Positions 25,194 to 42,240 of a stretch of DNA of 64,000 nucleotides are shown here, piece after piece (the first letter of the stretch is position 1; the number at the start of each line of letters is the position of its first letter). This DNA comes from a virus: positions 32,001 through 96,000 of IMG/VR virus record IMGVR_UViG_3300033156_000775. One strand, 5' to 3'. The translations under genes were made by a program, and so were the position numbers. The notes beneath the pieces are model-generated. The model was given only the letters and a program-made list of their open reading frames with translations, was not told the origin of the DNA and did no database searches.

Positions 25194-25451
25194 ATGTCTG
25201 ATGAAGGAAACGTTTGGACCACTCCAGAGCCTAAGGTGCCTCCTACCATACAGGTAGGGGACAAAGAATTCAAGGTTGAGCTAGAGAGTGACTTTGTGTC
25301 CACTATACTTGGGATCGTAAGATCCCTAGGTATAGGTAGGTTCCTAGTGAAGTACAATGGCTCAGTGATCACACCAGCTGAAGCACCAGACACATTCGAG
25401 GACTATGCTGGAAAAACAATCGTAATAGAGCCAGTTGATGAAGCTGGATAA
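25194..25451 (+). CDS. Ubiquitin-like (beta-grasp) protein
   Basis: 85 aa with a beta-grasp-like pattern, ending IVIEPVDEAG (C-terminal Gly); first gene of an operon with E2, E1 and JAB genes. Confidence 0.7.
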   Translation: MSDEGNVWTTPEPKVPPTIQVGDKEFKVELESDFVSTILGIVRSLGIGRFLVKYNGSVITPAEAPDTFEDYAGKTIVIEPVDEAG

Positions 25452-25483
25452 GAGCTTCTACACACTGGCTCACTTTTTTTTTC

Positions 25484-26635
25484 ATGGAGGATGTTTATAT
25501 GAGGCTTGTTTTCAAGAAGGATGGTGAAAGGCCTCCCAACTTCTATATTGAAATTTCCTATGAAGAGAAAGACCTGATTAACAATTATATCTATGAGAGT
25601 GGAGTTTACTATATCAGTGACAAGATCTACCTGACCAATGCCACTGTGGCTAGAGCTCTAGGTCTCTCATCCAGATATTTGGACTATCATCCATTTATGA
25701 GTAGTTTTACTTCTAGGGAGCTCTTAAGTGCAGCCAAGATAGACATTGAAGATCCTGATGAAAGACAAAAGCTCATCTCTTCAGTGTACAAATACCTGAA
25801 AAACAGGCTTGAGATAGCCATGTCCAAGACTGTTAGGGATGAACGTTCTATTCCCCTAGACATATCTCCATCCCTAGGAGAAATGAATGTAAGCCTAGAG
25901 GAAGTAGGAAAGATAGGGACACCTTTCCTCATCTCTATCGGGGACAAGGTGTTTGAGGCTAAGCTAGTAAAGGAGATTGACAGCTTCAGAGACTACATGC
26001 AGAGAAGGCTGAAGCAGATAGTGGGGGCATATAGAAACCACATTACAGCTACTCTCAGTGCCCTACGTGACGAGTATGATAGGAAACTAGAGGAAATAGA
26101 AAAAACCAGGGAAACAATGATCCCAATGCCTAACATCACTCTTAGTGACTTAGCTACTGGCATGAGAATATGTAGGAACAACCAGTACCTAGAGGTTTAT
26201 CTGCCAGTGAAGGTAGAGATCAAAAGAGTCTTTTACAACAAGAAATCTTTTACATTGAAAAAGGAGTACTGGTGTACTCTCAGAGGACTAGCTGGACTAG
26301 CACTGGATCGTGATCTTACAATAGTGTCAACCAAGTTTGTGAGGTCTAAGAGGGCAAGTAGGGGAGTTAGGCATCCTAACGTGAATGATGATGGAATGGT
26401 GTGTCTTGGCTATACTAGACAGATCCTAGGTAGGAGGCTAAACGACATACATGATGCTTACACATGGATATATTCAGTGGTTGATTTGCTGTCCGTACCT
26501 AACTTCGATGATGCATACGATGTCCATGTTTCACAATGGGCTAGGGAGGTCTTTGATGCTCTGGAAAGTGGCCACTCAAGTGAGGTAGTAGAGGAAGTGG
26601 CTACTCTTCCTTCAGAAGTAGTGTGGAGGACATAA
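25484..26635 (+). CDS. E2 ubiquitin-conjugating-like protein with an N-terminal coiled-coil extension
   Basis: HPNVNDDGMVCLG matches the E2 HPN..G.(I/V)CL catalytic motif, and downstream LLSVPNFDDAY matches the E2 LL..PN..D motif. Confidence 0.8.
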   Translation: MEDVYMRLVFKKDGERPPNFYIEISYEEKDLINNYIYESGVYYISDKIYLTNATVARALGLSSRYLDYHPFMSSFTSRELLSAAKIDIEDPDERQKLISSVYKYLKNRLEIAMSKTVRDERSIPLDISPSLGEMNVSLEEVGKIGTPFLISIGDKVFEAKLVKEIDSFRDYMQRRLKQIVGAYRNHITATLSALRDEYDRKLEEIEKTRETMIPMPNITLSDLATGMRICRNNQYLEVYLPVKVEIKRVFYNKKSFTLKKEYWCTLRGLAGLALDRDLTIVSTKFVRSKRASRGVRHPNVNDDGMVCLGYTRQILGRRLNDIHDAYTWIYSVVDLLSVPNFDDAYDVHVSQWAREVFDALESGHSSEVVEEVATLPSEVVWRT

Positions 26636-26638
26636 CTA

Positions 26639-27277
26639 TTGTACGCTAGGCAGTCTAGTTTAAATCTCCATATTCCAAGTGACATTGGGATCATCGGGTG
26701 TGGAGGCATAGGCTCATGGGTAGCCATCTACTCTGCTATGGGAGGAGTAAGGACAATCAGCTTGTTTGACCCTGACATCCTAGAGATCCATAACCTGAAT
26801 AGACTTCCATATCCTGAGAGTGCTGTGGGCATGAAGAAAGTAGATGTCCTTAGAGAATACCTAGTCCACATTAGGCCTCAGAGTGAGGTATTTGCCTACG
26901 ATAGACGTATTTCAAGGGACAATGCAACCCTACTTCACAAGTGTAAAATAGTCTTTGACTGTACAGATAGCACCAGAGCCCATAGGTTGATAGAGGGCTT
27001 ATGGGTCAAGAAGAGCTTTACTGATCTGATTAGAGCCTCATATGATGGTGACCATTACACCTTGTCCAAGAACCTTCGTTTAGAGAGCATGTCTTGGGGA
27101 AATGAAACCTCTGGGTACCAGATTGTCCCCAGCTGGGTCATCCCAGCATCGTTCATAGCCCAGATTGCATGTTGGTTGGCATATGCTGAGGATGCCCCTG
27201 AAAGATACTTTCTTTCTAACAGTTTAAGGAATACTGTTAACCGTTTCATTTATGGAGGTAAGACCACAATTGACTAG
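26639..27277 (+). CDS. E1/ThiF-family adenylyltransferase
   Basis: YARQ, IIGCGGIGS, DPDILEIHNLNR, KVD and FDCTDS motifs. Confidence 0.9.
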   Translation: MYARQSSLNLHIPSDIGIIGCGGIGSWVAIYSAMGGVRTISLFDPDILEIHNLNRLPYPESAVGMKKVDVLREYLVHIRPQSEVFAYDRRISRDNATLLHKCKIVFDCTDSTRAHRLIEGLWVKKSFTDLIRASYDGDHYTLSKNLRLESMSWGNETSGYQIVPSWVIPASFIAQIACWLAYAEDAPERYFLSNSLRNTVNRFIYGGKTTID

Positions 27278-27379
27278 AAGGAGGAGAAAAAAGAAGAGGA
27301 AAGCTACAGAGGAAACAGGTGGCATACTAGTAGTAGTGGATGATAGGGATAGGAGCAGTGAATTGTCATACCATATCCG

Positions 27380-27907
27380 TTGATTGCCAGGATCTCCAGC
27401 CTAGTTTCTAGACTTCATACTGAGTGGCTAGGTTACTTGGACTATGAACAGGTTGAGGACAATGGTAGACTTGTGTACAGAGCTACAGAGATTACTATCC
27501 CAGATCAGGAGGTCACATACTCATCGGTAAACGTTAACGATCCTGCTATAGGGATAGGTAAAGGAGTCATCCACTGTCATCCCTGGAAGGGATATTCATC
27601 TCATTCTAACACTGATGAGGACTACGTTGATAGGAATCATCCCTTCAGCATAGTTGTAAACAAGGACTTGGACTTCTCTGTAAAAGCTGTAGTAGACGTC
27701 CCATGTGGGTCTAGGATACTAGTAGATGGGGAAGTAGAAATTGAATATCCAGATGTGGATACCAAGTCCTTCCTAGAGGAGGCTAAGAGCAAAATCAAGG
27801 AGAAGAAGTATGTCTACAGATACTCTGCATCTAGGAAAAAGTCATCAGGGATAACTGCTATGGAGTATGGGTACCTAGATCCATACTCATATTCCTGGAT
27901 GCCGTAG
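27380..27907 (+). CDS. JAB/MPN (JAMM) metalloprotease, putative Ubl deconjugase; 5' end possibly frameshifted
   Basis: EWLGYL Glu, IPDQEV, HCHP..SHSNTD (HxH..S..D). Confidence 0.85.
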   Translation: MIARISSLVSRLHTEWLGYLDYEQVEDNGRLVYRATEITIPDQEVTYSSVNVNDPAIGIGKGVIHCHPWKGYSSHSNTDEDYVDRNHPFSIVVNKDLDFSVKAVVDVPCGSRILVDGEVEIEYPDVDTKSFLEEAKSKIKEKKYVYRYSASRKKSSGITAMEYGYLDPYSYSWMP

Positions 27908-32998: not shown

Positions 32999-33057
32999 AT
33001 GTGACAATGATGGAGCTTACAAACACGGAGTCTGTTGAGCTCCATTAGCTCTCACAT
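32999..33057 (+). ncRNA. Y-RNA-like unit 1 (minimal; short hairpin cargo)
   Basis: Outer helix ATGTGA/TCACAT; inner TGATGGAGCT-TACA..AGCTCCATTA; cargo AACA..TGTT hairpin. Confidence 0.75.
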
Positions 33058-33067
33058 AAGTTGATTG

Positions 33068-33199
33068 GTGTGACTTGGACAGGAGCTTACAGGTCTAAAG
33101 CGTCACCCTGCTAAGGTGAAGATCTAGGTTCAAGTCCTAGCATGTCCACCATACTGGGCATGTGGCTGAAGTGGTTTAGAGCTCCTGTCACCTTCACAC
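33068..33199 (+). ncRNA. Y-RNA-like unit 2 carrying a circularly permuted tRNA mimic (anticodon GCT)
   Basis: GTGTGA/TCACAC; GACAGGAGCT-TACA..AGCTCCTGTC. Cargo: anticodon arm TCACC-CTGCTAA-GGTGA, T arm CTAGG-TTCAAGT-CCTAG, CATGTCC-A-CCA linked to GGGCATG-TG-GCTGAAGTGG. Confidence 0.85.
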
Positions 33200-33209
33200 A
33201 GATTAAGTG

Positions 33210-33301
33210 ATGTGCCTAGCTAGGAGCTTACAAACTGTGGCTATGGATACACGGTTAAGCTGGTAGGTCCAGCTGGTTAGAAGCTCCTAGCACTTGCACA
33301 T
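33210..33301 (+). ncRNA. Y-RNA-like unit 3 (two-hairpin cargo)
   Basis: ATGTGC/GCACAT; GCTAGGAGCT-TACA..AGCTCCTAGC; cargo AACTGTG/CACGGTT and AGCTGG/CCAGCT hairpins. Confidence 0.8.
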
Positions 33302-33308
33302 ATCTAAG

Positions 33309-33392
33309 ATGTCCCATAGACAGGAGCTTACAAACTGCCCCAACCAAACTAAAGCTGGCAACTCTAGAAGAAAGCTCCTGTCACCTGGACAT
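33309..33392 (+). ncRNA. Y-RNA-like unit 4
   Basis: ATGTCC/GGACAT; GACAGGAGCT-TACA..AGCTCCTGTC-ACCT; cargo TGCC/GGCA hairpin. Confidence 0.8.
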
Positions 33393-33421: not shown

Positions 33422-33619
33422 ATGTCTATACTTAGGGTGGTAGTTGGACAGGACATTCAGGAGCTAGAAGTATCTGAGAACATGGCTAGACTGTCAGATG
33501 AGGAGATACTTAGCTTTGTAAGGGAAGCTACAAATAGACCTGTAGATCCAGAGGACTTTGTAGTGGATAGGACAGAAAACAACAACATAGTGGTTAGGCC
33601 TAGAGCTGTCTATGGATAG
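33422..33619 (+). CDS. Putative ubiquitin-like protein of the TROVE/vWA locus
   Basis: 65 aa with a beta-alpha-beta pattern, ending VVRPRAVYG (C-terminal Gly); GGAGG RBS; embedded in the RNA array. Confidence 0.6.
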   Translation: MSILRVVVGQDIQELEVSENMARLSDEEILSFVREATNRPVDPEDFVVDRTENNNIVVRPRAVYG

Positions 33620-33762
33620 TGACAATATTGGATGAGATATTATCCATTCCAGATCCTAGTGGCCCTAGAAATTTCATTAAGAGGAATCTCAGGGTAGGAA
33701 AGGCTATAGATCAATACGGACATATCTATCCTACTTATATATCTAAAGCTATCTATGGATAA
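33619..33762 (+). CDS. 47-aa peptide ending KAIYG
   Basis: GTG start overlaps the stop of the previous gene; MTILDEILS..YISKAIYG*; below the ORF-track cutoff. Confidence 0.4.
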   Translation: MTILDEILSIPDPSGPRNFIKRNLRVGKAIDQYGHIYPTYISKAIYG

Positions 33763-33927
33763 GGGCTGAACATTGACTGATAATTCTAAACACATATTAA
33801 CACCGAAGAAACTATTAGAGAAGTTTCTTAAAGTGTCTCTTCCTGCCTATATAATTGGGCTAGAGATATTCCCTGAATCTGGAGCTATATGGATAATCAA
33901 AGAAGATAATATGGATGTCCATTGAAG

Positions 33928-34056
33928 GTGTGCTTTATGGATAGGAGCTTACAGCACACAGGGCTACCAGATCCTGTAGTATGGGTTCAAGTCCCGTCAT
34001 AAGCAGCAGCTTGGCTATGTAGTGCAACTGGACAAGAGCTCCTATCACCTGCACAC
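33928..34056 (+). ncRNA. Y-RNA-like unit 5 carrying a circularly permuted tRNA mimic (Trp-like 8-nt anticodon loop)
   Basis: GTGTGC/GCACAC; GATAGGAGCT-TACA..AGCTCCTATC-ACCT. Cargo: GCAC-A-CAGGG-CTACCAGA-TCCTG, ATGGG-TTCAAGT-CCCGT, CATAAGC..GCTATG-TA-GTGC-AACTGG. Confidence 0.85.
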
Positions 34057-34097
34057 AATAGCTTAGCGGGTCCTCACTTTCCTGTCTAAGTTACCTG

Positions 34098-34228
34098 GTG
34101 TACCATGATGAGAGCTTACAAACCCAGTGTCGGTGGGAGAGATGTGGGTTCAAGTCCCACTATCCCTACATGGGATATGGTCTAACTGGCTGAGGACGCT
34201 TAATGTATAGCTCTCATCTCCTGTACAC
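34098..34228 (+). ncRNA. Y-RNA-like unit 6 with a YrlA-type tRNA elbow mimic
   Basis: GTGTAC/GTACAC; GATGAGAGCT-TACA..AGCTCTCATC. Cargo: T arm GTGGG-TTCAAGT-CCCAC, closed acceptor TATCCC-TACAT-GGGATA, D arm GTC-TAACTGGCTGAG-GAC. Confidence 0.85.
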
Positions 34229-34445
34229 TTTAATCCTCGTAGCGAAGTTAGAACGGATATGAGTTGATCTAATTTGCCAATCGATGTAAATCCATCTGAG
34301 CGTTGTATCTTTACTGAATTACCAGTTAAATGTAGAATTAGAGCTGAGTTTAATCCAAAACCTGAGCTCTTAGTCAAGTTCTGTAGTATTTGTCCTGTTT
34401 TGATGGTGATAAAAAATAATATGAAATGAAAAGGAGAAATAGGTT

Positions 34446-35900
34446 ATGTCAGTAGATGAAAGAATACCCATATATCAAGAGCTCTTCCAGTCTATACTAG
34501 ATTGTCCACATGGAAACCTAGAGGAGACATTCAGAGTCCATAAGGAAGTCCTAGAGAAGAACCCACTGTTCTATATGAAGATGGCTGCTTGGTACATGAA
34601 GAATGGGATGGTTAGAGACCACAAAGTTGCTTTTGTAAAGACATTGATGGAGGCTGATGATCCTACTTTGAGGGATGAGGGATGGGCTCTTATTCAGAGG
34701 CTGCCCATACACTTGTTAGCTCAGGTAGTCCGGTCTACAAAGAAGACTAAGGCACTACGGTCAGCCGTGAAGCACAAGCTAGCTGAAATGCCATATAACA
34801 GGCTAGTGTCTGAGATCCTTAGATCATCTAAAGACCTTAAGAGCATGGTTGTTGCTCTACACATACCTACAACCAAGTCTTCAAACTTGAACTTTGAGAC
34901 TATAGGAACTGAATTGTTCACTAAGAATCGTCCAATAAGGAGAGTCTTTGCTCAGCTAAGGAATGAGGAAGACCCAGATAAAGTAGCTGTCTTGCTTGAG
35001 AAGCTACCTATCCCATCCTACATTGCCATGACCTCTATCAAGGTACGTACACCTGAAATAGTGAGAGTGCTAGTCAAACGTATGACTCCTAATGAGCTTA
35101 TACAGTCTCTTAACATGCTGGGTAGGTTGAGAGCTATCAAGCCTAACATGGACATTATTAGGGGGAAGCTAGATAAGCTTGTATCTGACCCTAGAGTGAA
35201 CGCTATGAGAGTCCTCAACATCCTACAGCATCTAGAGCCAGCTCTAGTTCCCTATGAAGTGTTTGAGGTACTTGAGAGAGCTGTGTCCAGAAAAGCAAAG
35301 AGCATAAGCAAGATAGATGCTAGGGTCTCCCTCCACATTGACACTTCAGGTAGCATGGAGCCTGCTATTGAGATAGGGAAGATGCTGGCTACATCACTAT
35401 CCATTGCATGTAAAGAGCCTCCTACGGTATACAGTGTGTCTAGCACTCCATTCAAGGTTCAGCCTAGTAGCTACACTCCCTCAGGATGGAAGGAATCTTT
35501 CAGTCTACTGAGAGCTAATGGTGCTACCCCTCTTGGAGCAGGAATATCCCTAATGAAGCAGCATGGAGACACATGTGATGTCATCATACTGGTCACCGAC
35601 ACAGGGGAGAACTCATTCCCCAAGTTTGCTGATGAGTACCAGACATTAGGCAACAAGCCTAGAGTGATAATCCTCAATGTCAGCAGACACCCTGATAGAG
35701 GGTTCTTAGGGTCCCTCAGAAGAGCTAATGTATCCTTTGAAATGCTACAGGTTAGAAGAGTAGATCAATACTCAGTGGACCAAGTGGTTACCCTTATAGG
35801 AGAAAGTAGCCCCTTCAAGACCATAATGGAGATAATGAACACTGATGTCCCATTGAGACCTACATGGACTAAGAAGCCCCAGTACTGGCTGAAGAAATAG
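34446..35900 (+). CDS. TROVE/Ro60 (Rsr)-like helical RNA-binding protein with a C-terminal vWA domain
   Basis: Helical N-terminal region (PLFYMKMAAWY..G.VRDHK); vWA MIDAS motif HIDTSGSM, GATPLG and LVTDTGEN; 484 aa; adjacent to Y-RNA-like genes. Confidence 0.75.
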   Translation: MSVDERIPIYQELFQSILDCPHGNLEETFRVHKEVLEKNPLFYMKMAAWYMKNGMVRDHKVAFVKTLMEADDPTLRDEGWALIQRLPIHLLAQVVRSTKKTKALRSAVKHKLAEMPYNRLVSEILRSSKDLKSMVVALHIPTTKSSNLNFETIGTELFTKNRPIRRVFAQLRNEEDPDKVAVLLEKLPIPSYIAMTSIKVRTPEIVRVLVKRMTPNELIQSLNMLGRLRAIKPNMDIIRGKLDKLVSDPRVNAMRVLNILQHLEPALVPYEVFEVLERAVSRKAKSISKIDARVSLHIDTSGSMEPAIEIGKMLATSLSIACKEPPTVYSVSSTPFKVQPSSYTPSGWKESFSLLRANGATPLGAGISLMKQHGDTCDVIILVTDTGENSFPKFADEYQTLGNKPRVIILNVSRHPDRGFLGSLRRANVSFEMLQVRRVDQYSVDQVVTLIGESSPFKTIMEIMNTDVPLRPTWTKKPQYWLKK

Positions 35901-35943
35901 ACAAGTGTAGCCCGGACTACATTTTGAGGGAGGATACTTAGCG

Positions 35944-36315
35944 ATGGCTAATGATGAGCCTTTGACATTAGATCAAGTTATCTCTCTAGTCAGAGTCACA
36001 ATGAAATCTATAGATCCAGTTAGGCTCTTCTATGAGCTAAAGAAGAAGAGAGTCAAGTTCTTAAGAGAAAGGTCAGTGGAAATAGCAAGAGCTGCAATAT
36101 CCCTCCATATTCTTGGACTTCCAATAAACACCACTTTCCTCTCGTGCATACTAGATATTGATCCGCAAATAATACGTACAGTTATGCATACTCTAGGAGA
36201 CAAGCATGTCTTTACCCTTAAGCGTGAAGGGTTTGGGAGTAAGGGATATGGATATGAGTGGACACCTAATCCAGCTATTCTAGGAGACTTTATAAATTGT
36301 CTAGAGGAAGAGTAG
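35944..36315 (+). CDS. Hypothetical winged-helix-like protein
   Basis: 123-aa ORF; INTTFLSCILDIDPQIIRTVMHTLGDK helix-turn-helix pattern. Confidence 0.45.
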   Translation: MANDEPLTLDQVISLVRVTMKSIDPVRLFYELKKKRVKFLRERSVEIARAAISLHILGLPINTTFLSCILDIDPQIIRTVMHTLGDKHVFTLKREGFGSKGYGYEWTPNPAILGDFINCLEEE

Positions 36316-37112
36316 GCACATTTGTGTCAGCTGTTCTACCTAAAACTAGAAAGGTAACTAGAGTGACTGATCTTGGAGTCAGAGAGTACTTGGTTACTAG
36401 GAAGGTCCCTCCTAACATCTATGTCTTCAGGTCTAGAGGGATATATGCTGAGCCACTAGCCATAGCTGCTGACATGGCTGATCGAATGGAATACTTTGAG
36501 AGCTTATGTCTACCAAGAGTCTATGTGTTCCCTGTAGTCCGGACTACACATTGGCTAGCTGTCCCACTAGCAAGGGAGCACTATAAGAAACATGTAAAGT
36601 ATTCAGCCCCTTTACCTCTAATCTTTACTCCTAATAATCTAAGTCCGTTAGACCCTGTAATGGCTAGGGTCTATAAGGGCAAACGCACATACTTGATGTT
36701 TGAGGATTACCACTACAAATATGATCCAGAATTGGTTGAGAGAGCTAGGGACTATTTAATCTCACTGAGAGCTTCCTCTTATAGGAAAGACACTATGATT
36801 GATGCTCTTAAGCTGCCAGCTGAGCTTAGGGAGGCAGTTAAGATAATTGCTGACAGCATTACTCCTCCCCTAGAAAGAATGGTTAAGCATTCCCTTAGCC
36901 TTGTAAATGCTGAGTTTGTTTCTTTACAGGATATGGGAGCTGGAAGGTATAGAGTCACTTATCTTTACAAGGGAATTAAGGATTATATTGACATAGATGA
37001 CTCCCTGTTCTGTCTAAATATCGGGATATGTGTGGATGGACATGATAGGGATTTTGACTTAGCTAGTGGAATCCTAGTTAAGCATGAAAGAGATGATTAC
37101 GTTTATGACTAG
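36297..37112 (+). CDS. Hypothetical protein of the TROVE/vWA-Ubl locus; candidate divergent E2-like
   Basis: C-terminal GICVDGHDRDFDLAS motif with a Cys; I recall similar proteins beside vWA and ThiF genes in bacteria (unverified). Confidence 0.5.
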   Translation: MSRGRVGTFVSAVLPKTRKVTRVTDLGVREYLVTRKVPPNIYVFRSRGIYAEPLAIAADMADRMEYFESLCLPRVYVFPVVRTTHWLAVPLAREHYKKHVKYSAPLPLIFTPNNLSPLDPVMARVYKGKRTYLMFEDYHYKYDPELVERARDYLISLRASSYRKDTMIDALKLPAELREAVKIIADSITPPLERMVKHSLSLVNAEFVSLQDMGAGRYRVTYLYKGIKDYIDIDDSLFCLNIGICVDGHDRDFDLASGILVKHERDDYVYD

Positions 37113-37911
37113 AATGAAAGAGTGGACTTGGGAGCTAGACCTGCAACATGAGAAAGCTGAAACAAAGCAGGAAGCTCTTAAGAACGTTAAAGCATTTTTC
37201 AAGTACCTATCAAATCTTCCAGTAGACCAGCTTGAAGAGTACATTACTATTTGGTCAGATGATGTTAGAGAGGAATAGATAATTGTTATCCCTTAAAAAA
37301 AAAAAGAGGTGAGTAAATGTGTCGTTAGATCTTAAACCTATAGATAGCCCTCCTTCCCTACGTAGAAATAAGTATAAAAATCTCTTAGAGAAATTCCTAG
37401 AAGACTCGGATGTTAAATATGCAGAAGTGGTTTTTCAGGACATTAGTCCACTTTCTGTAGTTCAAAGTCTCAACAAAGCCATTAAGTCTTCAGAGAGATA
37501 CAGTAAAATCCAAGCGAGGAGAGCTGGAGGCAAGGTTTACTTAATAAAGGAGGATAGTTGAAAAAAAAATGGACATAGGACAAGTTGAAAATAAAAGGAG
37601 GAATGATAAGGTATGGAGAAATTAGCAAAGTATACTCTGATAGCTACAGCAATAATATTTCCGTTGATGACTCTAGTTGCTTTCTACATTGACACAAGCT
37701 ACTACTACGACTATATCTTCATATCCAATAACTATCCTGAGCTACTGGACTATCACACTCGTATACTGAAATACGCTATCAATGCCATTGAACATACAAG
37801 CATTCTGTCTAGGATTTCCATCTACTTAGCCTTCCTAATCTTTGCTGGTATCCTAAGTCTACTCGCATGGTTATTTCTAAAGGATATGTTCTAAAATAGG
37901 GGAATTAGACT

Positions 37912-38904
37912 ATGAGTATAGACCCTGAATTGTTGAAGCAAATAGTATCTGAAGCTGTCAAAGCAGCTCAGTCCGAAGCTAAGAAAGAACCAGAGTTAGA
38001 CCAGTGGGCACTAGCTGAAGCTCCATTAGAAGAGGAGATAGACCTAAGCAAGCCTGAATATGAAGAGATGATCCTACAGCCCAGTGACATATCAGAGAAG
38101 AAGGAGCTATCAGGCTTCAAGACACATACATTTCTAGATCTGTTATTCATGGATGAAAAGAACAATTGTCTTAATGGAGTGCCTCATGGGGTCCAGCTTG
38201 GGATTGTAGGTACAAGTGGCTCAGGGAAATCTATCTTAATAGAAGAGATTGCTGTCCGGGTAGCTAGTGAAGGTAAGAAAGTACTCTTGGCTTCTAGTGA
38301 AGATGTTTTTATCTCTGACACTCCTAGATTCGATCTACAATCTAGATTAATGCAGAAAGCAAAGATACTAGACCTAGACTGGGATACTATAAAGGAGAAC
38401 TTATATGTCCTAGATGCTATTAGCAATCCTAGACTTAGAGAGTGGGACTTCTTTGCTGAGATATATAGATATGCATATGAGACTAGAGAGTTTGAATTAG
38501 CCCTTATAGACTCTATAACTATGCTAGAGTCCTACAGGGGAGCTCTTAAGTATCGTTTGATGGAGCTTTCCAGATACAACCAAGTTAGAGGAATAACAGC
38601 TATCTATGTGAACCAAAGGGCTTCAGAGGATTTTGACAAGCTATCCATTGCTGGAGGAATAGGATTAGCTCATGGTCTAGATGCTAACATAATCATTGAT
38701 GTAGGCCGGACATACTTCAGTGACCAGACAGCCTATCTAGGGAAGAGAGGCACTATAGTGAATATGTGTAGGGTTACTGATTGTAGGCTATGCTCCTTTA
38801 TTCGAGAGCATATTCCCTTAACAATAACCAATCAAGGACTCTTAAAGTTGACAGATACAGGTGTAGAGATGATAAAGCAGTTCTACTCTCAAAAAGCAGA
38901 ATAA
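37912..38904 (+). CDS. KaiC/RadA-like RecA-superfamily ATPase
   Basis: Walker A GTSGSGKS; Walker B ALIDSIT; NQR; AGGIGLAHGLD; DCRLC. Confidence 0.85.
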   Translation: MSIDPELLKQIVSEAVKAAQSEAKKEPELDQWALAEAPLEEEIDLSKPEYEEMILQPSDISEKKELSGFKTHTFLDLLFMDEKNNCLNGVPHGVQLGIVGTSGSGKSILIEEIAVRVASEGKKVLLASSEDVFISDTPRFDLQSRLMQKAKILDLDWDTIKENLYVLDAISNPRLREWDFFAEIYRYAYETREFELALIDSITMLESYRGALKYRLMELSRYNQVRGITAIYVNQRASEDFDKLSIAGGIGLAHGLDANIIIDVGRTYFSDQTAYLGKRGTIVNMCRVTDCRLCSFIREHIPLTITNQGLLKLTDTGVEMIKQFYSQKAE

Positions 38905-41568
38905 GGAAGATGAAGACAGTGAAATATGGTGATGGAAAGGGCAGAGTATTTATGTTGATGCCTGTTGGAAGGCTACGCTTTGTTCTGCCCTGGTATCTAG
39001 CTAACGACAGCACCTTCCATATTTCTGTTCCATTGGACTATAAAGACCTAGAATTCCTATCTAGAGAGCTAGGCTTGCCAATTGAGTCCTCTGTCAATGG
39101 TAGGAAACTTCTAGCTATTAAAGAGGGAGACTTAGAAATCATTTTCATAGGTAGATAGAAATGAGAAGGTCTAAAGCTAAGAAAGAAATGTCTGAGCTAA
39201 TTGACTCCTTAGAAGAGGAGATAATTAAGCATAAGAAGCTAACCTGGATTAGAGTGCCATTGAAAGACAAGAAGGATACTCCTAGATTCAGACGCCTAAC
39301 ATTTAACGATGAGAATGGAGAGTTCAGTCCAGACAGGGTTAAGAGCTTCGTAGAGTTCCTTAGAGATATCACTAGTCAGGTAATAGATCAGGCCTACAAA
39401 GATAAGGTTGACATCAAAGATAGATCATCCTTGATTTATTTGCTAGGTCTAATTGTGGATCAGACATTTGAGGATTTAAGTTCAGATTAAACAGGAGGAA
39501 TAACTATGCTATGGATCTCAGTCCTTACTGGAATCCTAATTGGAATAGTAGTTGGATCTGTCTATTCCTTTTCTAGGAAATTATTCTTGGTAGGTGTCAT
39601 AGGGGCTTCTGGTGTATTTGCCTTATTACTCTCTGTAGCTCCCTACCCATTCCTTCTAACTCTACAGGAAGAGATAGTTTCCTGGAATAGCCTGTTGAAG
39701 TTAACAGGCTTCCTATTTGGACTGTATCCTGGTAATGATTTAGGACGGATCTTAAGAGAAGAGGTGAAATAGGAAATGGAAATAATATACCATGACAGAT
39801 GGAGTCAGGAAGCAACTAGCTATGGATTAGTAATAATAGAGGATGAGTCCTTCCTAGATGAGTATGGAGGACGATTCCTAGTAGTAGCTCTAGTCGGAAG
39901 CTATGGTACAACATACTTCTACAATAAGGGATACAAGCATCCAAGCTATGTGAAGGAGAAGCATTCCAATCTAACGTGGAGAGATGCTGAGATCATTGCT
40001 GAAAGGCTAAACGAGGTAATAGGATAAATGTCCATTAGATGTGATCTACTGGACAATGCGAACAGAGCCATAGAATACTTACAGGACAGAATAGACACTC
40101 TAGTCTCAGATAGGGATAATGATGTCCAGCTAGCATCAGATGATATATTTTCTATCGTTGACCAATGGATAGAGGACTTACGTAAAGTCCTAAGCATCCT
40201 TACAGGAGAGGAATAAGGTAATGTCTGGTAAAGGTCTTATCCTTGAATGTCCATGTAACAACTGTAAGTATTCCTATGATGGTTGTGAGTTTGGATGCTC
40301 TAAACTTCTAGAATGGTTCTTTAAGTATCAGAAGCTTACAGGAGATGGGTCAGTAATTGTCAAGCTACAGGGATGACATACTAGAACGGTACATGGAATT
40401 CTGGAACAAATGTGGGACACATGGGCTAAGTAACAAGGACAAGTTGAAGGTACTGAAGAGGCTAGTGGATTTTGAATCTAAATGTAGCTACATCAGCTTC
40501 TCCTACAAAGACAAGTATAAAGAAAAGACATTGACTGAGCTGTTCCCTGAGCTAGTGCCAGCTAACTTATGTAAAGTCCACAGACACTCAGCTAGGCTTA
40601 ATGGCCTCATGCTCTATACCTTCAAGATTTGTCTAGAGAATGAACTTGAATCTTTAACTCTGGAGAGGAAGAGTGATGTCTCTTAGGCTATCCAAGTTTA
40701 TCTGGGCACTATATATTGACAAACAATTCATAGAGTACTTTGACACTCACCAGTCAGCTATAGACTTTGGTAAGAAATACTATCCTAATTTCAGCTTCAT
40801 AGTTAAGCCAATAACAGTATTCACGTTTGTAGGGGACAAGAAGCTTGAATGAAGGAGGATTTTAATGTCCTATGGTTCTGAATCATTTGGTCTGTTTGCT
40901 CTTAGGTCACAAATGGAAGAGTCTGTTTGAGGAATGGTCTATCAAGAATCTAGGAAATGGTCTAGTAGAAGAGACAGAAGTCTTTGTTTGTACTAGATGT
41001 GGTAAACGATGGACATTGAAAGGTATAATTGATTGCAAGGACCAGTCAGCTTTCCTAATGGAATGGAGGAATTAAACTGTGTCCGTAATAAGAACTGTCA
41101 AGGAAGAGCCATGTTCTCAGTGTGGTAGACTAACAAACGCATACGATATGCTGATGGGTAGGCTATGTCCAGAATGTATAGCTAAACGAGCTATTACTTT
41201 TGCTAGGAACATTAGGAATCTATATGGAATCGATGAGCCTGAAGAGTTAGACCCTTATTATTACAAATTAGCTACTTTGCCCCTGATAGATCATAGCAAT
41301 GACATTGATGCTCATTTACATTCCATAACAAACTATAGAGATCCTAAGAGGATACCAATAATCCTTAAGCGTTTAGAGAATATCTGGAGAAGGTTTCCAG
41401 ACCTTAGACTAGGACAGCTTATAGAAAATGTCTTCCCTAACAGAGGGATAGCTGGACATAGTGAATCAGCATATTATCTGGAAGATGAAGAGTTTATTGA
41501 ACGAATAGAGAAATTTTATAGCAATATAAAGTCTGAAAAAGAGATAGACCATACCAAGCTAATAAGAG

Positions 41569-42240
41569 ATGAAGAGAATGTCCAAAATAGATAGGCAATT
41601 CCTACATGAGTTTCTTTACAGAGGAAAAGAGCTAGAATCCCTAGAAGATAAACAAGTTACGCTGTGTGGGTGTGGAGCTCTAGGGACTTGGACAGCTGTG
41701 TTCCTAGCTAGGAGTGGACTTAGACATTTCAGGCTGATAGATATGGATAAGGTTGAGATACACAACACTTCTACTCAAGCATTCTTCCTAGAGAACCTTA
41801 ACCAATACAAGGCTACTGCTCTGTCCAGAATCCTCTACAGAATCAACAGAGCTAGATCCTCAATCTACAATGAGGAGCTAACAGCTGACAATGTGTCCCT
41901 AGCTTTCGATGACACAGACTTGGTTATTTGTACATTTGACAACTATAAATCTAGAAAGCTGGTTAGGGACAAGGCCCTAGAGCTAGACTTTCCAACAGTG
42001 TTTGCAGGTATGAATGGAAGCCTAAACTATGGGGAGGTAGCTTGGGCTGAGGATTACAATCCTCCTAGAGATCCTAAATCTAGAGATATAGACCCATGCA
42101 ATTATCCATTAGCAACAACTTTAGTGGTGTTGACTTCAGCTGTACTAGCTGAGGTCTCTCTAAACTATCTCCTTAAAGGATTCAAGTTCTATAAGCCATT
42201 TGGCTTTTCATTTAGCTCTTTCCAGGTAATTTCAAAATAA
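41569..42240 (+). CDS. Second E1/ThiF-family protein
   Basis: HEFLYRG, LCGCGALG, DMDKVEIHN, CTFDN; candidate catalytic Cys in DPCNYPLA. Confidence 0.85.
   Translation: MKRMSKIDRQFLHEFLYRGKELESLEDKQVTLCGCGALGTWTAVFLARSGLRHFRLIDMDKVEIHNTSTQAFFLENLNQYKATALSRILYRINRARSSIYNEELTADNVSLAFDDTDLVICTFDNYKSRKLVRDKALELDFPTVFAGMNGSLNYGEVAWAEDYNPPRDPKSRDIDPCNYPLATTLVVLTSAVLAEVSLNYLLKGFKFYKPFGFSFSSFQVISK

What the first reader, a model, noticed from the sequence alone, without database searches (positions are those of the whole stretch)
33422..42240. A second, distinct Ubl pathway physically tied to the Ro/Y-RNA locus
Seen: a 65-aa gene ending RPRAVYG sits inside the ncRNA array. A Cys-motif protein (GICVDGHDRDFDLAS, 36297-37112) lies two genes after the vWA gene. 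A second, divergent ThiF/E1 with a candidate catalytic Cys (DPCNYPLA) lies at 41569-42240. I recall this combination (vWA protein, small ..RPEAVYG protein, ..GICLSG.DRDFDL protein and HE.LYR-type ThiF) from bacterial gene neighbourhoods, but cannot verify it here. Inference: this is an RNA-associated ubiquitin-like ligation system in which the Ro-Y RNP could act as the substrate adaptor. A protein that binds the tRNA-mimic bait would be tagged by Ubl conjugation. This would explain why different payloads share one handle.
Basis: inference. Interest (0 to 1): 0.8.

Follow-up and report, generated by a model that had tools for sequence, protein, structure and literature searches.

The report
Ubiquitin-like cascade wired to Ro60-like RNA particle
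This 107-kb phage carries a conserved four-gene set with matching small RNAs, also found in over 100 bacterial and phage loci, that joins a Ro60-type RNA-binding protein to a small glycine-ended protein, its activating enzyme and a new cysteine protein; I found no paper describing this link between RNA particles and protein tagging.

Summary

**The module (four genes, one strand):**
- U (33422-33619): 65 aa, ends RPRAVYG.
- V (34446-35900): a divergent Ro60/TROVE+vWA protein.
- C (36297-37112): a new family whose only invariant residue is the Cys of GICxxGxDRxFDL.
- T (41569-42240): a ThiF/E1 enzyme with an invariant Cys in D.C.YPLA.

**Conservation:**
- All four lie in this order on one strand in 113 fetched loci: cyanobacteria, Acidobacteriota, Armatimonadota, proteobacterial MAGs and phages.
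- In 151 sampled cyanobacterial genomes, C and strong V matches occur in exactly the same 11.
- Small RNAs with a shared stem ending AGCUUACA, often carrying a tRNA-like insert, flank U and occur nowhere else in those loci. The window has six, with U between the fourth and fifth.

**Reading:**
- T is distinct from the phage's other E1 (26639).
- C is not a recognisable E2. It has two OB/cold-shock-like barrels and a small Cys domain of inconclusive fold.
- That U is activated by T, passed to C, and aimed through the RNA particle is inference only. U's fold was not modelled.

Earlier follow-ups of this scan reported the same module on other DNA. No paper found describes it. This window holds the version without a JAB peptidase.

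The parts
33008..33047 (+). handle RNA unit 1 (short; inner stem ending AGCUUACA, 1 mismatch)
   Evidence: pattern scan; repeat family D4
33078..33189 (+). handle RNA unit 2; payload is a tRNA-like domain (33077-33151)
   Evidence: Rfam tRNA 53.3 bits; ARAGORN; fold -55.4 kcal/mol, z -3.2
33219..33291 (+). handle RNA unit 3
   Evidence: fold z -4.3 with outer and inner closing stems
33319..33382 (+). handle RNA unit 4
   Evidence: fold z -4.6; inverted repeat I3
33422..33619 (+). U: 65-aa protein ending RPRAVYG; candidate ubiquitin-like modifier
   Evidence: ORF; GGAGG 9 nt upstream; family alignment with invariant R5, D49, R59, P60, A62, V63 and terminal G65; found in 113 complete loci
33940..34046 (+). 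handle RNA unit 5 (payload with T-arm-like GGTTCAAGTCC)
34107..34218 (+). handle RNA unit 6 (inner stem carries compensatory changes relative to unit 2)
34446..35900 (+). V: divergent Ro60/TROVE ring plus vWA domain with complete MIDAS
   Evidence: family profile hits Ro60 9nen 8.4e-12, phage TROVE 9l5y/9kop 8e-9, Rsr 2nvo 2e-6; invariant D299, S301, S303, T361, D385
36297..37112 (+). C: new-family protein with two OB/cold-shock-like barrels, a helical linker and a small alpha/beta domain bearing invariant Cys245
   Evidence: alignment of 31 sequences in which only Cys245 is invariant; model pLDDT 88.5; OB matches at Z 6.2-6.8; no Pfam or PDB sequence match
41569..42240 (+). T: minimal E1-like adenylating enzyme with invariant Cys177 (D.C.YPLA); cognate to U and C
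   Evidence: Pfam ThiF 3.2e-27; 38% identity to the Nostoc module ThiF, against 27% for the phage's other ThiF; invariant residues; PDB E1 hits down to 6e-22

Best explanation
U, V, C, T and the handle RNAs are one functional module. It couples a Ro60-like ribonucleoprotein to a ubiquitin-like activation and transfer cascade.

Shown here: the four protein families and the RNAs are inherited together, in fixed order, across phyla and phages. V is a Ro60/TROVE+vWA relative with an intact MIDAS. T is an E1-type adenylating enzyme. U keeps an invariant C-terminal Gly. C keeps one invariant Cys and has OB-type barrels.

Inferred: T adenylates the terminal Gly of U and holds it on Cys177. U then passes to Cys245 of C, whose gene is usually translationally coupled to that of T. 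C (through its OB folds) and V (through its ring) sit on the handle RNAs, whose variable inserts mimic tRNA and other translation RNAs. U would then be attached to a protein on that particle: a protein captured by the RNA insert, or V or C itself.

The phage copy is a fast-evolving version without a JAB peptidase. It works independently of the phage's other Ubl-E2-E1 operon at 25194-27907.
For: Synteny: all four families occur in the order U-V-C-T on one strand in 113 loci, and they are the only protein families common to those loci. Of 141 V-subfamily loci with at least 6 kb downstream, 116 have C and T. Of 145 with at least 3.5 kb upstream, 136 have U. None of 25 more distant viral TROVE-vWA loci has C or T. 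The C-to-T gap has a median of 25 nt, and 83 of 123 gaps are 50 nt or less.

Genome level: where C was not near V, each of 5 genomes still had exactly one C elsewhere. In 151 sampled cyanobacteria, C occurs in 11 genomes and strong V matches occur in the same 11. In one genome both V and C carry in-frame stops.

Fusion: in L100 a U-like domain ending RPDSVLG is fused to the N-terminus of V.

Peptidase: in huge-phage versions a Prok-JAB gene lies between C and T, and two U proteins there carry two extra residues after the Gly.

RNAs: 195 ARAGORN hits lie just upstream of U or between U and V, all on the same strand, in 107 of 113 loci. A strict handle pattern occurs 102 times there and never elsewhere on either strand of the same loci. 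Phage and Nostoc units fold into the same two-part stem.

Chemistry: T keeps GxGxxG, D58, D60, N66, Q70, K81, D124, R129 and C177. C keeps only Cys245, with near-invariant G243 and D250. U keeps RP.AV[YFW]G.
Against: No biochemical step was tested. U shows no profile similarity to ThiS/MoaD (hhalign probability 0.3%) or to any Pfam or PDB family, and its fold was not modelled. The Cys domain of C gave only weak, tied fold matches (best Z 5.3; Cap2 E2 domain Z 4.3), and it lacks an HPN motif. No conserved target, E3 or peptidase is present in this window. In the window C and T are 4.4 kb apart with unrelated genes between them. In some bacteria the U-V and C-T halves lie far apart. Binding of the RNAs to V or C is inferred from position only; the best Rfam YrlA score is 21.8 bits against a threshold of 69.
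Confidence: 0.55

Rival explanations
1. V itself, or C, is the substrate. U is attached to, or released from, the Ro-like protein to switch the particle on or off. The RNAs are then ordinary Y-RNA-type regulators rather than baits for foreign proteins.
For: A U-V fusion with the Gly kept at the junction exists in L100. U and V are always adjacent, while C-T can lie elsewhere in the genome. The MIDAS of V is invariant, and MIDAS sites bind acidic ligands. U has an invariant Asp49.
Against: No conserved Lys was identified as an acceptor. The diversity of RNA inserts (tRNA-like, tmRNA-like, 23S-like) is not explained by simple self-regulation.
Confidence: 0.17
2. U and T form a sulphur-carrier pair of the ThiS/MoaD/TtuB type. 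U would become a thiocarboxylate, Cys245 of C would relay a persulphide, and the tRNA-like RNAs would be thiolated.
For: The best NCBIfam matches of T are ThiS adenylyltransferase models, all below their cut-offs. T is a bare adenylation domain like ThiF/MoeB. tRNA-like RNAs lie in the module.
Against: U ends in a single Gly after an aromatic residue, not in GG. It has no profile similarity to ThiS/MoaD. No rhodanese, cysteine desulphurase or PP-loop ATPase is among the conserved families. T lacks the Zn CxxC pairs. JAB peptidases, capped U proteins and the U-V fusion in relatives fit a conjugation and deconjugation cycle.
Confidence: 0.1
3. T acts on RNA, or joins U to RNA. T might modify a base of the tRNA-like inserts as TcdA does. 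Alternatively, after adenylation, it might pass U onto an RNA 3' end or nucleotide, as aminoacyl-tRNA synthetases or MccB do.
For: TcdA structures score as well as true E1s against the T profile (2.7e-20), and MccB scores 1.9e-16. The RNAs flank U in nearly every locus.
Against: Invariant cysteines in both T and C point to a thioester relay. The handle RNAs are heterogeneous, and several lack a tRNA-like acceptor end.
Confidence: 0.08
4. The genes are unrelated neighbours in a phage genome, and the small ORF is not a real gene.
For: In this window C and T are separated by 14 unrelated ORFs. U is only 65 aa and matches no known family.
Against: The order is fixed in 113 loci across phyla, co-occurrence is perfect in 151 genomes, and U has an invariant C-terminal motif.
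Confidence: 0.01

Closest known systems
Bacterial and phage Ro60 (Rsr) with Y RNAs: Deinococcus Rsr-Y RNA-PNPase, Salmonella/Mycobacterium Rsr-YrlA, Thermus phage phiLo Ro60 (PMC4201824; 10.1101/312249; PMC12135203)
   Same: A TROVE ring plus a vWA domain with MIDAS. Small RNAs are encoded beside the gene and combine a closing stem with a tRNA-like module. Occurs in phages and in bacteria.
   Different: V is a separate, very divergent subfamily: no Pfam TROVE hit, 100/100 split from other viral TROVE-vWA proteins. The RNAs do not reach the Rfam Y RNA or YrlA thresholds. The module always carries U, C and T, which the papers I read on Ro60 do not mention.
Bacterial ubiquitin-like conjugation operons: Bil (BilA-D), Bub, and CBASS Cap2/Cap3 (10.1101/2023.09.04.556158; 10.1101/2023.09.26.559546; PMC11601596)
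   Same: A small Gly-ended protein, an E1-type adenylating enzyme and a Cys-bearing partner. Relatives also have a JAB peptidase between C and T. PADLOC E1-E2 models match the E1 part of T.
   Different: No UBC-fold E2 is recognisable. C is a new family with OB folds. A Ro60-like protein and structured RNAs are integral parts. This window and the cyanobacterial versions lack the peptidase.
Non-canonical eukaryotic cascades with single-Gly modifiers (Atg12/Atg8 with Atg7; UFM1 with UBA5); comparison from general knowledge
   Same: The modifier ends in an aromatic or aliphatic residue followed by a single Gly. The E1 is a compact adenylation domain that may carry its Cys in the core rather than in a separate Cys domain.
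   Different: No sequence relationship was shown. The position of Cys177 in the fold of T was not tested.
[quoted passage not shown]
   Same: Several module loci abut arrays of up to about 40 tRNA genes (L183, L120, L086, L087, L090). The species shown in that paper's Figure 6 include Acaryochloris marina MBIC11017 and Nostoc carneum NIES-2107, which are among my loci.
   Different: That paper discusses HNH endonuclease, RtcB and DpsA neighbours. Its text has no match for Willebrand, Ro60, TROVE, ubiquitin or adenylyltransferase.

Membership tests
E1-like adenylating enzymes (ThiF/MoeB/UBA superfamily), for T | Rossmann-type nucleotide-binding fold with GxGxxG and the Asp/Asn/Lys/Arg residues of the adenylation site | tested here: met
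   Pfam ThiF 3.2e-27, above the cut-off. Invariant G34, G36, G39, D58, D60, N66, Q70, K81, D124 and R129. PDB E1 hits at 6e-22 to 1e-15.
E1-like adenylating enzymes, for T | Catalytic Cys able to form a thioester with the modifier | tested here: inconclusive
   Cys177 is invariant in 17 diverse members. Its place in the fold (crossover loop or not) was not modelled.
MoeB/ThiF sulphur-carrier activating enzymes, for T | Zn-binding CxxC pairs and/or a rhodanese domain; partner protein ending in GG | tested here: not met
   The alignment has no CxxC pairs and no extra domain. U ends in [YFW]G. All NCBIfam ThiF/MoeB scores are below their cut-offs.
Ubiquitin-like beta-grasp modifiers, for U | Exposed C-terminal Gly conserved across the family and genetically linked to an E1 | tested here: met
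   G65 is invariant, within the motif RP.AV[YFW]G. U is linked to T in 113 loci.
Ubiquitin-like beta-grasp modifiers, for U | Beta-grasp fold | not tested
The best PDB profile hit was FAT10 at E 0.11, not significant.
E2 / UBC-fold conjugating enzymes, for C | UBC fold (helix, four-stranded meander, Cys loop, helices) | tested here: inconclusive
   The model of residues 172-271 (pLDDT 85.8) has helix, four strands, Cys loop and helix. Matches are weak and tied: Cap2 E2 domain Z 4.3, Bub complex Z 4.0, Tsg101 UEV Z 3.7, all among unrelated folds; best Z 5.3.
E2 / UBC-fold conjugating enzymes, for C | Conserved catalytic Cys, with an HPN-type motif upstream | tested here: inconclusive
   Cys245 is the only invariant residue. 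No HPN motif is present. No UQ_con or Prok-E2 Pfam hit was found even at E up to 10. C is therefore not filed as an E2.
Ro60 / TROVE proteins, for V | TROVE helical ring followed by a vWA domain with MIDAS | tested here: met
   The family profile hits Ro60 across residues 143-499 (8.4e-12), phage TROVE proteins 63-340 (8e-9) and Rsr (2e-6). The DxSxS..T..D residues are invariant. The single sequence has no Pfam TROVE hit.
Ro60 / TROVE proteins, for V | Bound Y RNA partner | not testable with these tools
   The RNAs are adjacent and module-specific, but binding was not tested. The Rfam YrlA score in L068 is 21.8 bits against a threshold of 69, and the window has no hit.
Bil / Bub / CBASS-type defence Ubl operons | A set of Ubl, E1, UBC-type E2 and JAB peptidase recognised by defence-system models | tested here: not met
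   PADLOC models match only the E1 part of T; U, V and C have no hit. No Prok-JAB match is present in the whole phage genome at E up to 0.1.

The most novel reading that the evidence does not exclude
The handle RNAs are decoys of translation parts. The phage has tRNA-like inserts; Nostoc also has a tmRNA-like piece and a 23S rRNA fragment beside an L7/L12 paralogue. The RNAs would be held on a Ro60-like ring. A protein that binds or attacks a decoy, such as a tRNA nuclease or a ribosome-targeting toxin, would be covalently tagged with U by the RNA-bound Cys protein C. Bacteria would use this as an RNA-guided defence or quality-control tagging system, and phages would use it as a counter-defence. 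That would be RNA-programmed substrate choice for a ubiquitin-like ligase.
Probability: 0.2. Interest if true: 0.95.

Novelty: new variant of a known kind. Interest (0 to 1): 0.8.

Why it matters
Ro60/Y RNA particles and ubiquitin-like tagging are each well studied, but I found no description of the two coupled. A conserved, horizontally mobile module joins them to a new OB-fold cysteine protein and to modular RNAs that imitate tRNA and other translation RNAs. This suggests a way of choosing targets for protein tagging through RNA. It could also explain what the long-puzzling MIDAS of Ro60 and bacterial Y-RNA-like decoys are for. The module sits beside stress-induced tRNA arrays in cyanobacteria and inside phages, so it is likely to matter for conflicts over the translation machinery. 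All parts are small and soluble, which makes the hypothesis directly testable in vitro.

Tried and rejected
- **Complex prediction:** Complex prediction on T+U+C with C as partner returned no verdict (score 0.00), so it says nothing either way.
- I took neighbourhoods from the search for related loci and the genome search instead.
- **Blank searches for close relatives:** megablast of the region against GenBank phages found nothing. A viral-contig scan with the close C alignment found nothing.
- **Family libraries:** Pfam, PHROGs, NCBIfam and PADLOC gave nothing for U or C. PDB sequence profiles for U and C gave nothing significant.
- **ESM Atlas:** no usable hit for C; only unnamed clusters for U.
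- **Fold searches of C:** Foldseek, VIA wide and VIA second look on the Cys domain gave no clear fold. C as a cysteine protease was rejected because no His is conserved.
- **U against ThiS/MoaD:** hhalign gave no similarity.
- **Neighbouring ORFs:** the 123-aa ORF 35944-36315, the KaiC-like ATPase 37912-38904 and the other ORFs between C and T have no counterparts in related loci, so I excluded them from the module.
- **Sequencing runs:** no RNA holder was listed; only partial DNA shares in hydrothermal-vent metagenomes, which I did not lay.
- **Literature:** the Burroughs and Aravind 2016 RNA-repair paper could not be read.

Full report
**What the window is.** It is bases 32001-96000 of a complete 107,029-bp virus record with direct terminal repeats. 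Genes in the region run on the + strand.

**Checking the observation.**
- U (33422-33619) is 65 aa and ends RPRAVYG. A GGAGG lies 9 nt upstream of its start.
- V (34446-35900) is 484 aa with a DTSGSM MIDAS motif.
- A 123-aa ORF follows V, then C (36297-37112), 271 aa, with GICVDGHDRDFDLAS.
- T (41569-42240) is 223 aa, starts FLHEFLYR and contains DPCNYPLA. It matches Pfam ThiF at 3.2e-27.
- The other ThiF, at 26639-27277, scores 5.6e-27.
- The C start may be TTG 36297 or GTG 36321.

**The RNA array around U.**
- Repeat finding and folding show six units, each with the same two-part closing stem. An outer stem and an internal loop lead to an inner stem that ends in AGCUUACA on its 5' side.
- Four units lie before U and two after it.
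- Unit 2 carries a tRNA-like insert (Rfam 53.3 bits; ARAGORN).
- Units 2 and 6 differ in the inner stem by compensatory changes.

**What the proteins are.**
- *V.* The single sequence has no Pfam hit. A profile of 27 relatives matches human Ro60 (8.4e-12, across ring and vWA), the Thermus phage TROVE protein (8e-9) and Deinococcus Rsr (2e-6). All MIDAS residues are invariant. V is therefore a divergent Ro60-type protein.
- *T.* It is a bare E1 adenylation domain. The nucleotide-site residues are conserved and Cys177 is invariant. Solved E1s, TcdA, MoeB, ThiF and MccB all match its first 150 residues.
- *U.* It has no family match anywhere. Its relatives keep R5, D49 and the tail RP.AV[YFW]G with an invariant terminal Gly.
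- *C, family.* The word-based search found only four close relatives. A full profile search of 1.84 billion representatives found 35. In an alignment of 31 sequences the sole invariant residue is Cys245. W86, P90, G243 and D250 are nearly invariant.
- *C, fold.* The AlphaFold model (pLDDT 88.5) shows two beta-barrels. The second matches cold-shock, S1 and IF1-type OB folds at Z 6.2-6.8 with rmsd 2.2-2.8 Å over about 60 residues. A helical linker follows, then a C-terminal unit of helix, four-stranded meander, Cys loop and helix.
- *C, Cys domain.* Modelled alone (pLDDT 85.8), that unit gave no clear fold match. E2-type folds appear only among many unrelated ties: Cap2 E2 domain Z 4.3, a Bub complex chain Z 4.0, Tsg101 UEV Z 3.7. 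I therefore do not call C an E2.

**Do the genes co-occur?** Yes, and strongly.
Pairwise comparisons confirm homology: C at 3e-11, the U tail at 55% identity, T at 38% identity (4e-41), V at about 30%. The phage's other ThiF is only 27% identical to the Nostoc T.
- Across all fetched loci, 113 carry U, V, C and T in that order on one strand. Clustering of every ORF in those regions shows these are the only universal families.
- Of 141 loci with enough downstream sequence, 116 have C and T. Of 145 with enough upstream sequence, 136 have U.
- The 25 more distant viral TROVE-vWA loci have neither C nor T.
- C and T are usually translationally coupled: the median gap is 25 nt.
- Five genomes lacked C near V. 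Each has exactly one C elsewhere. T is beside it in two of them, and a second U is upstream in one.
- In an even sample of 151 cyanobacterial genomes, C is present in 11, and strong V matches (E below 1e-200) are in the same 11.
- Hosts include Nostocales, Oscillatoriales, Acaryochloris, Acidobacteriota, Chthonomonadaceae, Chloroflexia and proteobacterial MAGs, plus IMG/VR viral contigs of 50-390 kb.

**The RNAs are part of the module.**
- ARAGORN finds 92 tRNA-like hits just upstream of U and 103 between U and V, all on the coding strand, in 107 of 113 loci. Only one lies between V and C.
- A strict handle pattern (six bases, AGCTTACA, then the complementary arm within 300 nt) occurs 102 times in the U-flanking region. 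It occurs zero times elsewhere on either strand of the same loci.
- The Nostoc and phage units fold alike.
- In Nostoc the locus also holds a tmRNA-like piece, a fragment matching 23S rRNA model positions 1093-1148 (51.7 bits) and a full L7/L12 paralogue.

**Variants of the module.**
- In huge phages a Prok-JAB peptidase gene lies between C and T. Two U proteins there carry two residues after the Gly.
- In L100 a U-like domain is fused to V with the Gly kept at the junction.
- The window, its nearest relative L083 and the bacterial loci lack the peptidase, and their U ends at the Gly.
- A tree of V places the window in a long-branched clade of roughly 100-kb phage contigs inside the U/C/T-linked subfamily. 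That subfamily is separated with 100/100 support from other viral TROVE-vWA proteins.

**Mechanism.**
- The shown facts are the co-inheritance, the family assignments of V and T, and the conserved Gly and Cys residues.
- From established E1 chemistry, I infer that T adenylates the Gly of U and that the two invariant cysteines form a thioester relay from T to C.
- From the OB folds of C and the Ro60-like ring of V, I infer that both sit on the handle RNAs.
- What receives U is unknown. A self-regulatory role with V as the target is a serious rival because of the U-V fusion.
- A sulphur-carrier reading is weakened by three points: the single-Gly tail, the missing sulphur-transfer partners, and the peptidases and capped or fused U proteins in relatives.
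- The multimer prediction gave no verdict.

**Comparison with what is known.**
- Full-text searches that combined Ro60/TROVE with ubiquitin-like, E1/ThiF, tRNA-like and phage terms found no paper describing the link.
- The jumbo-phage survey mentions TROVE only as an RNA-repair scaffold.
- The phiLo Ro60 structure paper mentions neither ubiquitin nor ThiF, and says the role of MIDAS is unclear.
- The cyanobacterial tRNA-array paper shows neighbourhoods of two of my loci, but its text has no match for Willebrand, Ro60, TROVE, ubiquitin or adenylyltransferase.
- The 2016 RNA-repair survey could not be read, so prior mention there cannot be excluded.
- Earlier follow-up notes of this scan describe the same module on other genomes, mostly the five-gene version with JAB. 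One of those notes is marked as partly fallen on a later check, without saying which part. I treated the notes as leads and re-tested the co-occurrence, the fusion and the peptidase-less variant myself.

**Verdict.** The window holds a peptidase-less, fast-evolving phage member of a conserved, apparently unpublished module that couples a Ro60-like RNA particle to a ubiquitin-like cascade. It is independent of the phage's first Ubl operon.

Noticed in passing
L068:10351-10406, L068:7383-7763, L068:5315-5398: The Nostoc module holds a fragment matching bacterial 23S rRNA model positions 1093-1148 (51.7 bits) between V and C. It also holds a complete L7/L12 paralogue (Pfam 1.1e-24 plus the N-terminal dimerisation domain) and a tmRNA-like piece. 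The RNA inserts may therefore imitate more than tRNA.
   Followed up: partly
window 33619-33762: A 47-aa ORF starts on the U stop codon and ends SKAIYG. Its last 19 nt repeat the 3' end of U at 89% identity (33600-33618 against 33743-33761). It does not match the U profile, and L083 has no room for a counterpart because its U and V are 33 nt apart. It is probably a partial duplication remnant.
   Followed up: partly
L100:9770-11743: A U-like domain (residues 18-76, ending RPDSVLG) is fused directly to the N-terminus of the Ro60-like protein in a 73-kb viral contig.
   Followed up: yes
L086, L089, L091, L098 (between C and T): A Prok-JAB peptidase gene lies between C and T in huge-phage versions. 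The U proteins of L089 and L091 carry two residues after the conserved Gly. The window's genome has no Prok-JAB match at all.
   Followed up: yes
window 34725, 35907, 36534, 42258 (26 copies across the window): The palindrome GTAGTCCGGACTAC (26 copies at up to one mismatch, none expected by chance) punctuates the module. Copies lie inside V, just after the V stop, inside C (where it encodes VVRTT) and just after the T stop.
   Followed up: partly
genome handles G112 and G061: In one cyanobacterial genome both V (TGA) and C (TAA) carry in-frame stops, which may be joint decay of the module. Another genome has a TAA inside C.
   Followed up: no
proteins P0081, P0106, P0114, P0118, P0120: Some V relatives are about 800 aa long, with a 300-residue helical N-terminal extension that matches no Pfam family.
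   Followed up: partly
L183:2916-6770, L120, L086, L087, L090: The module often abuts long tRNA gene arrays of up to about 40 genes. These resemble the stress-induced L-arrays described in cyanobacteria (PMC8421152).
   Followed up: partly
window 41079-41594: A 171-aa ORF with an N-terminal CxxC...CxxC zinc-ribbon-like motif overlaps the start of T by 26 nt. It has no counterpart in related loci.
   Followed up: no
window 25194-27907: This is the phage's first Ubl-like operon: an 85-aa ORF, a 383-aa protein with a weak UQ_con hit, a ThiF and a 175-aa ORF. The putative JAB at 27380-27907 matches neither Pfam Prok-JAB nor any other Pfam family.
   Followed up: partly
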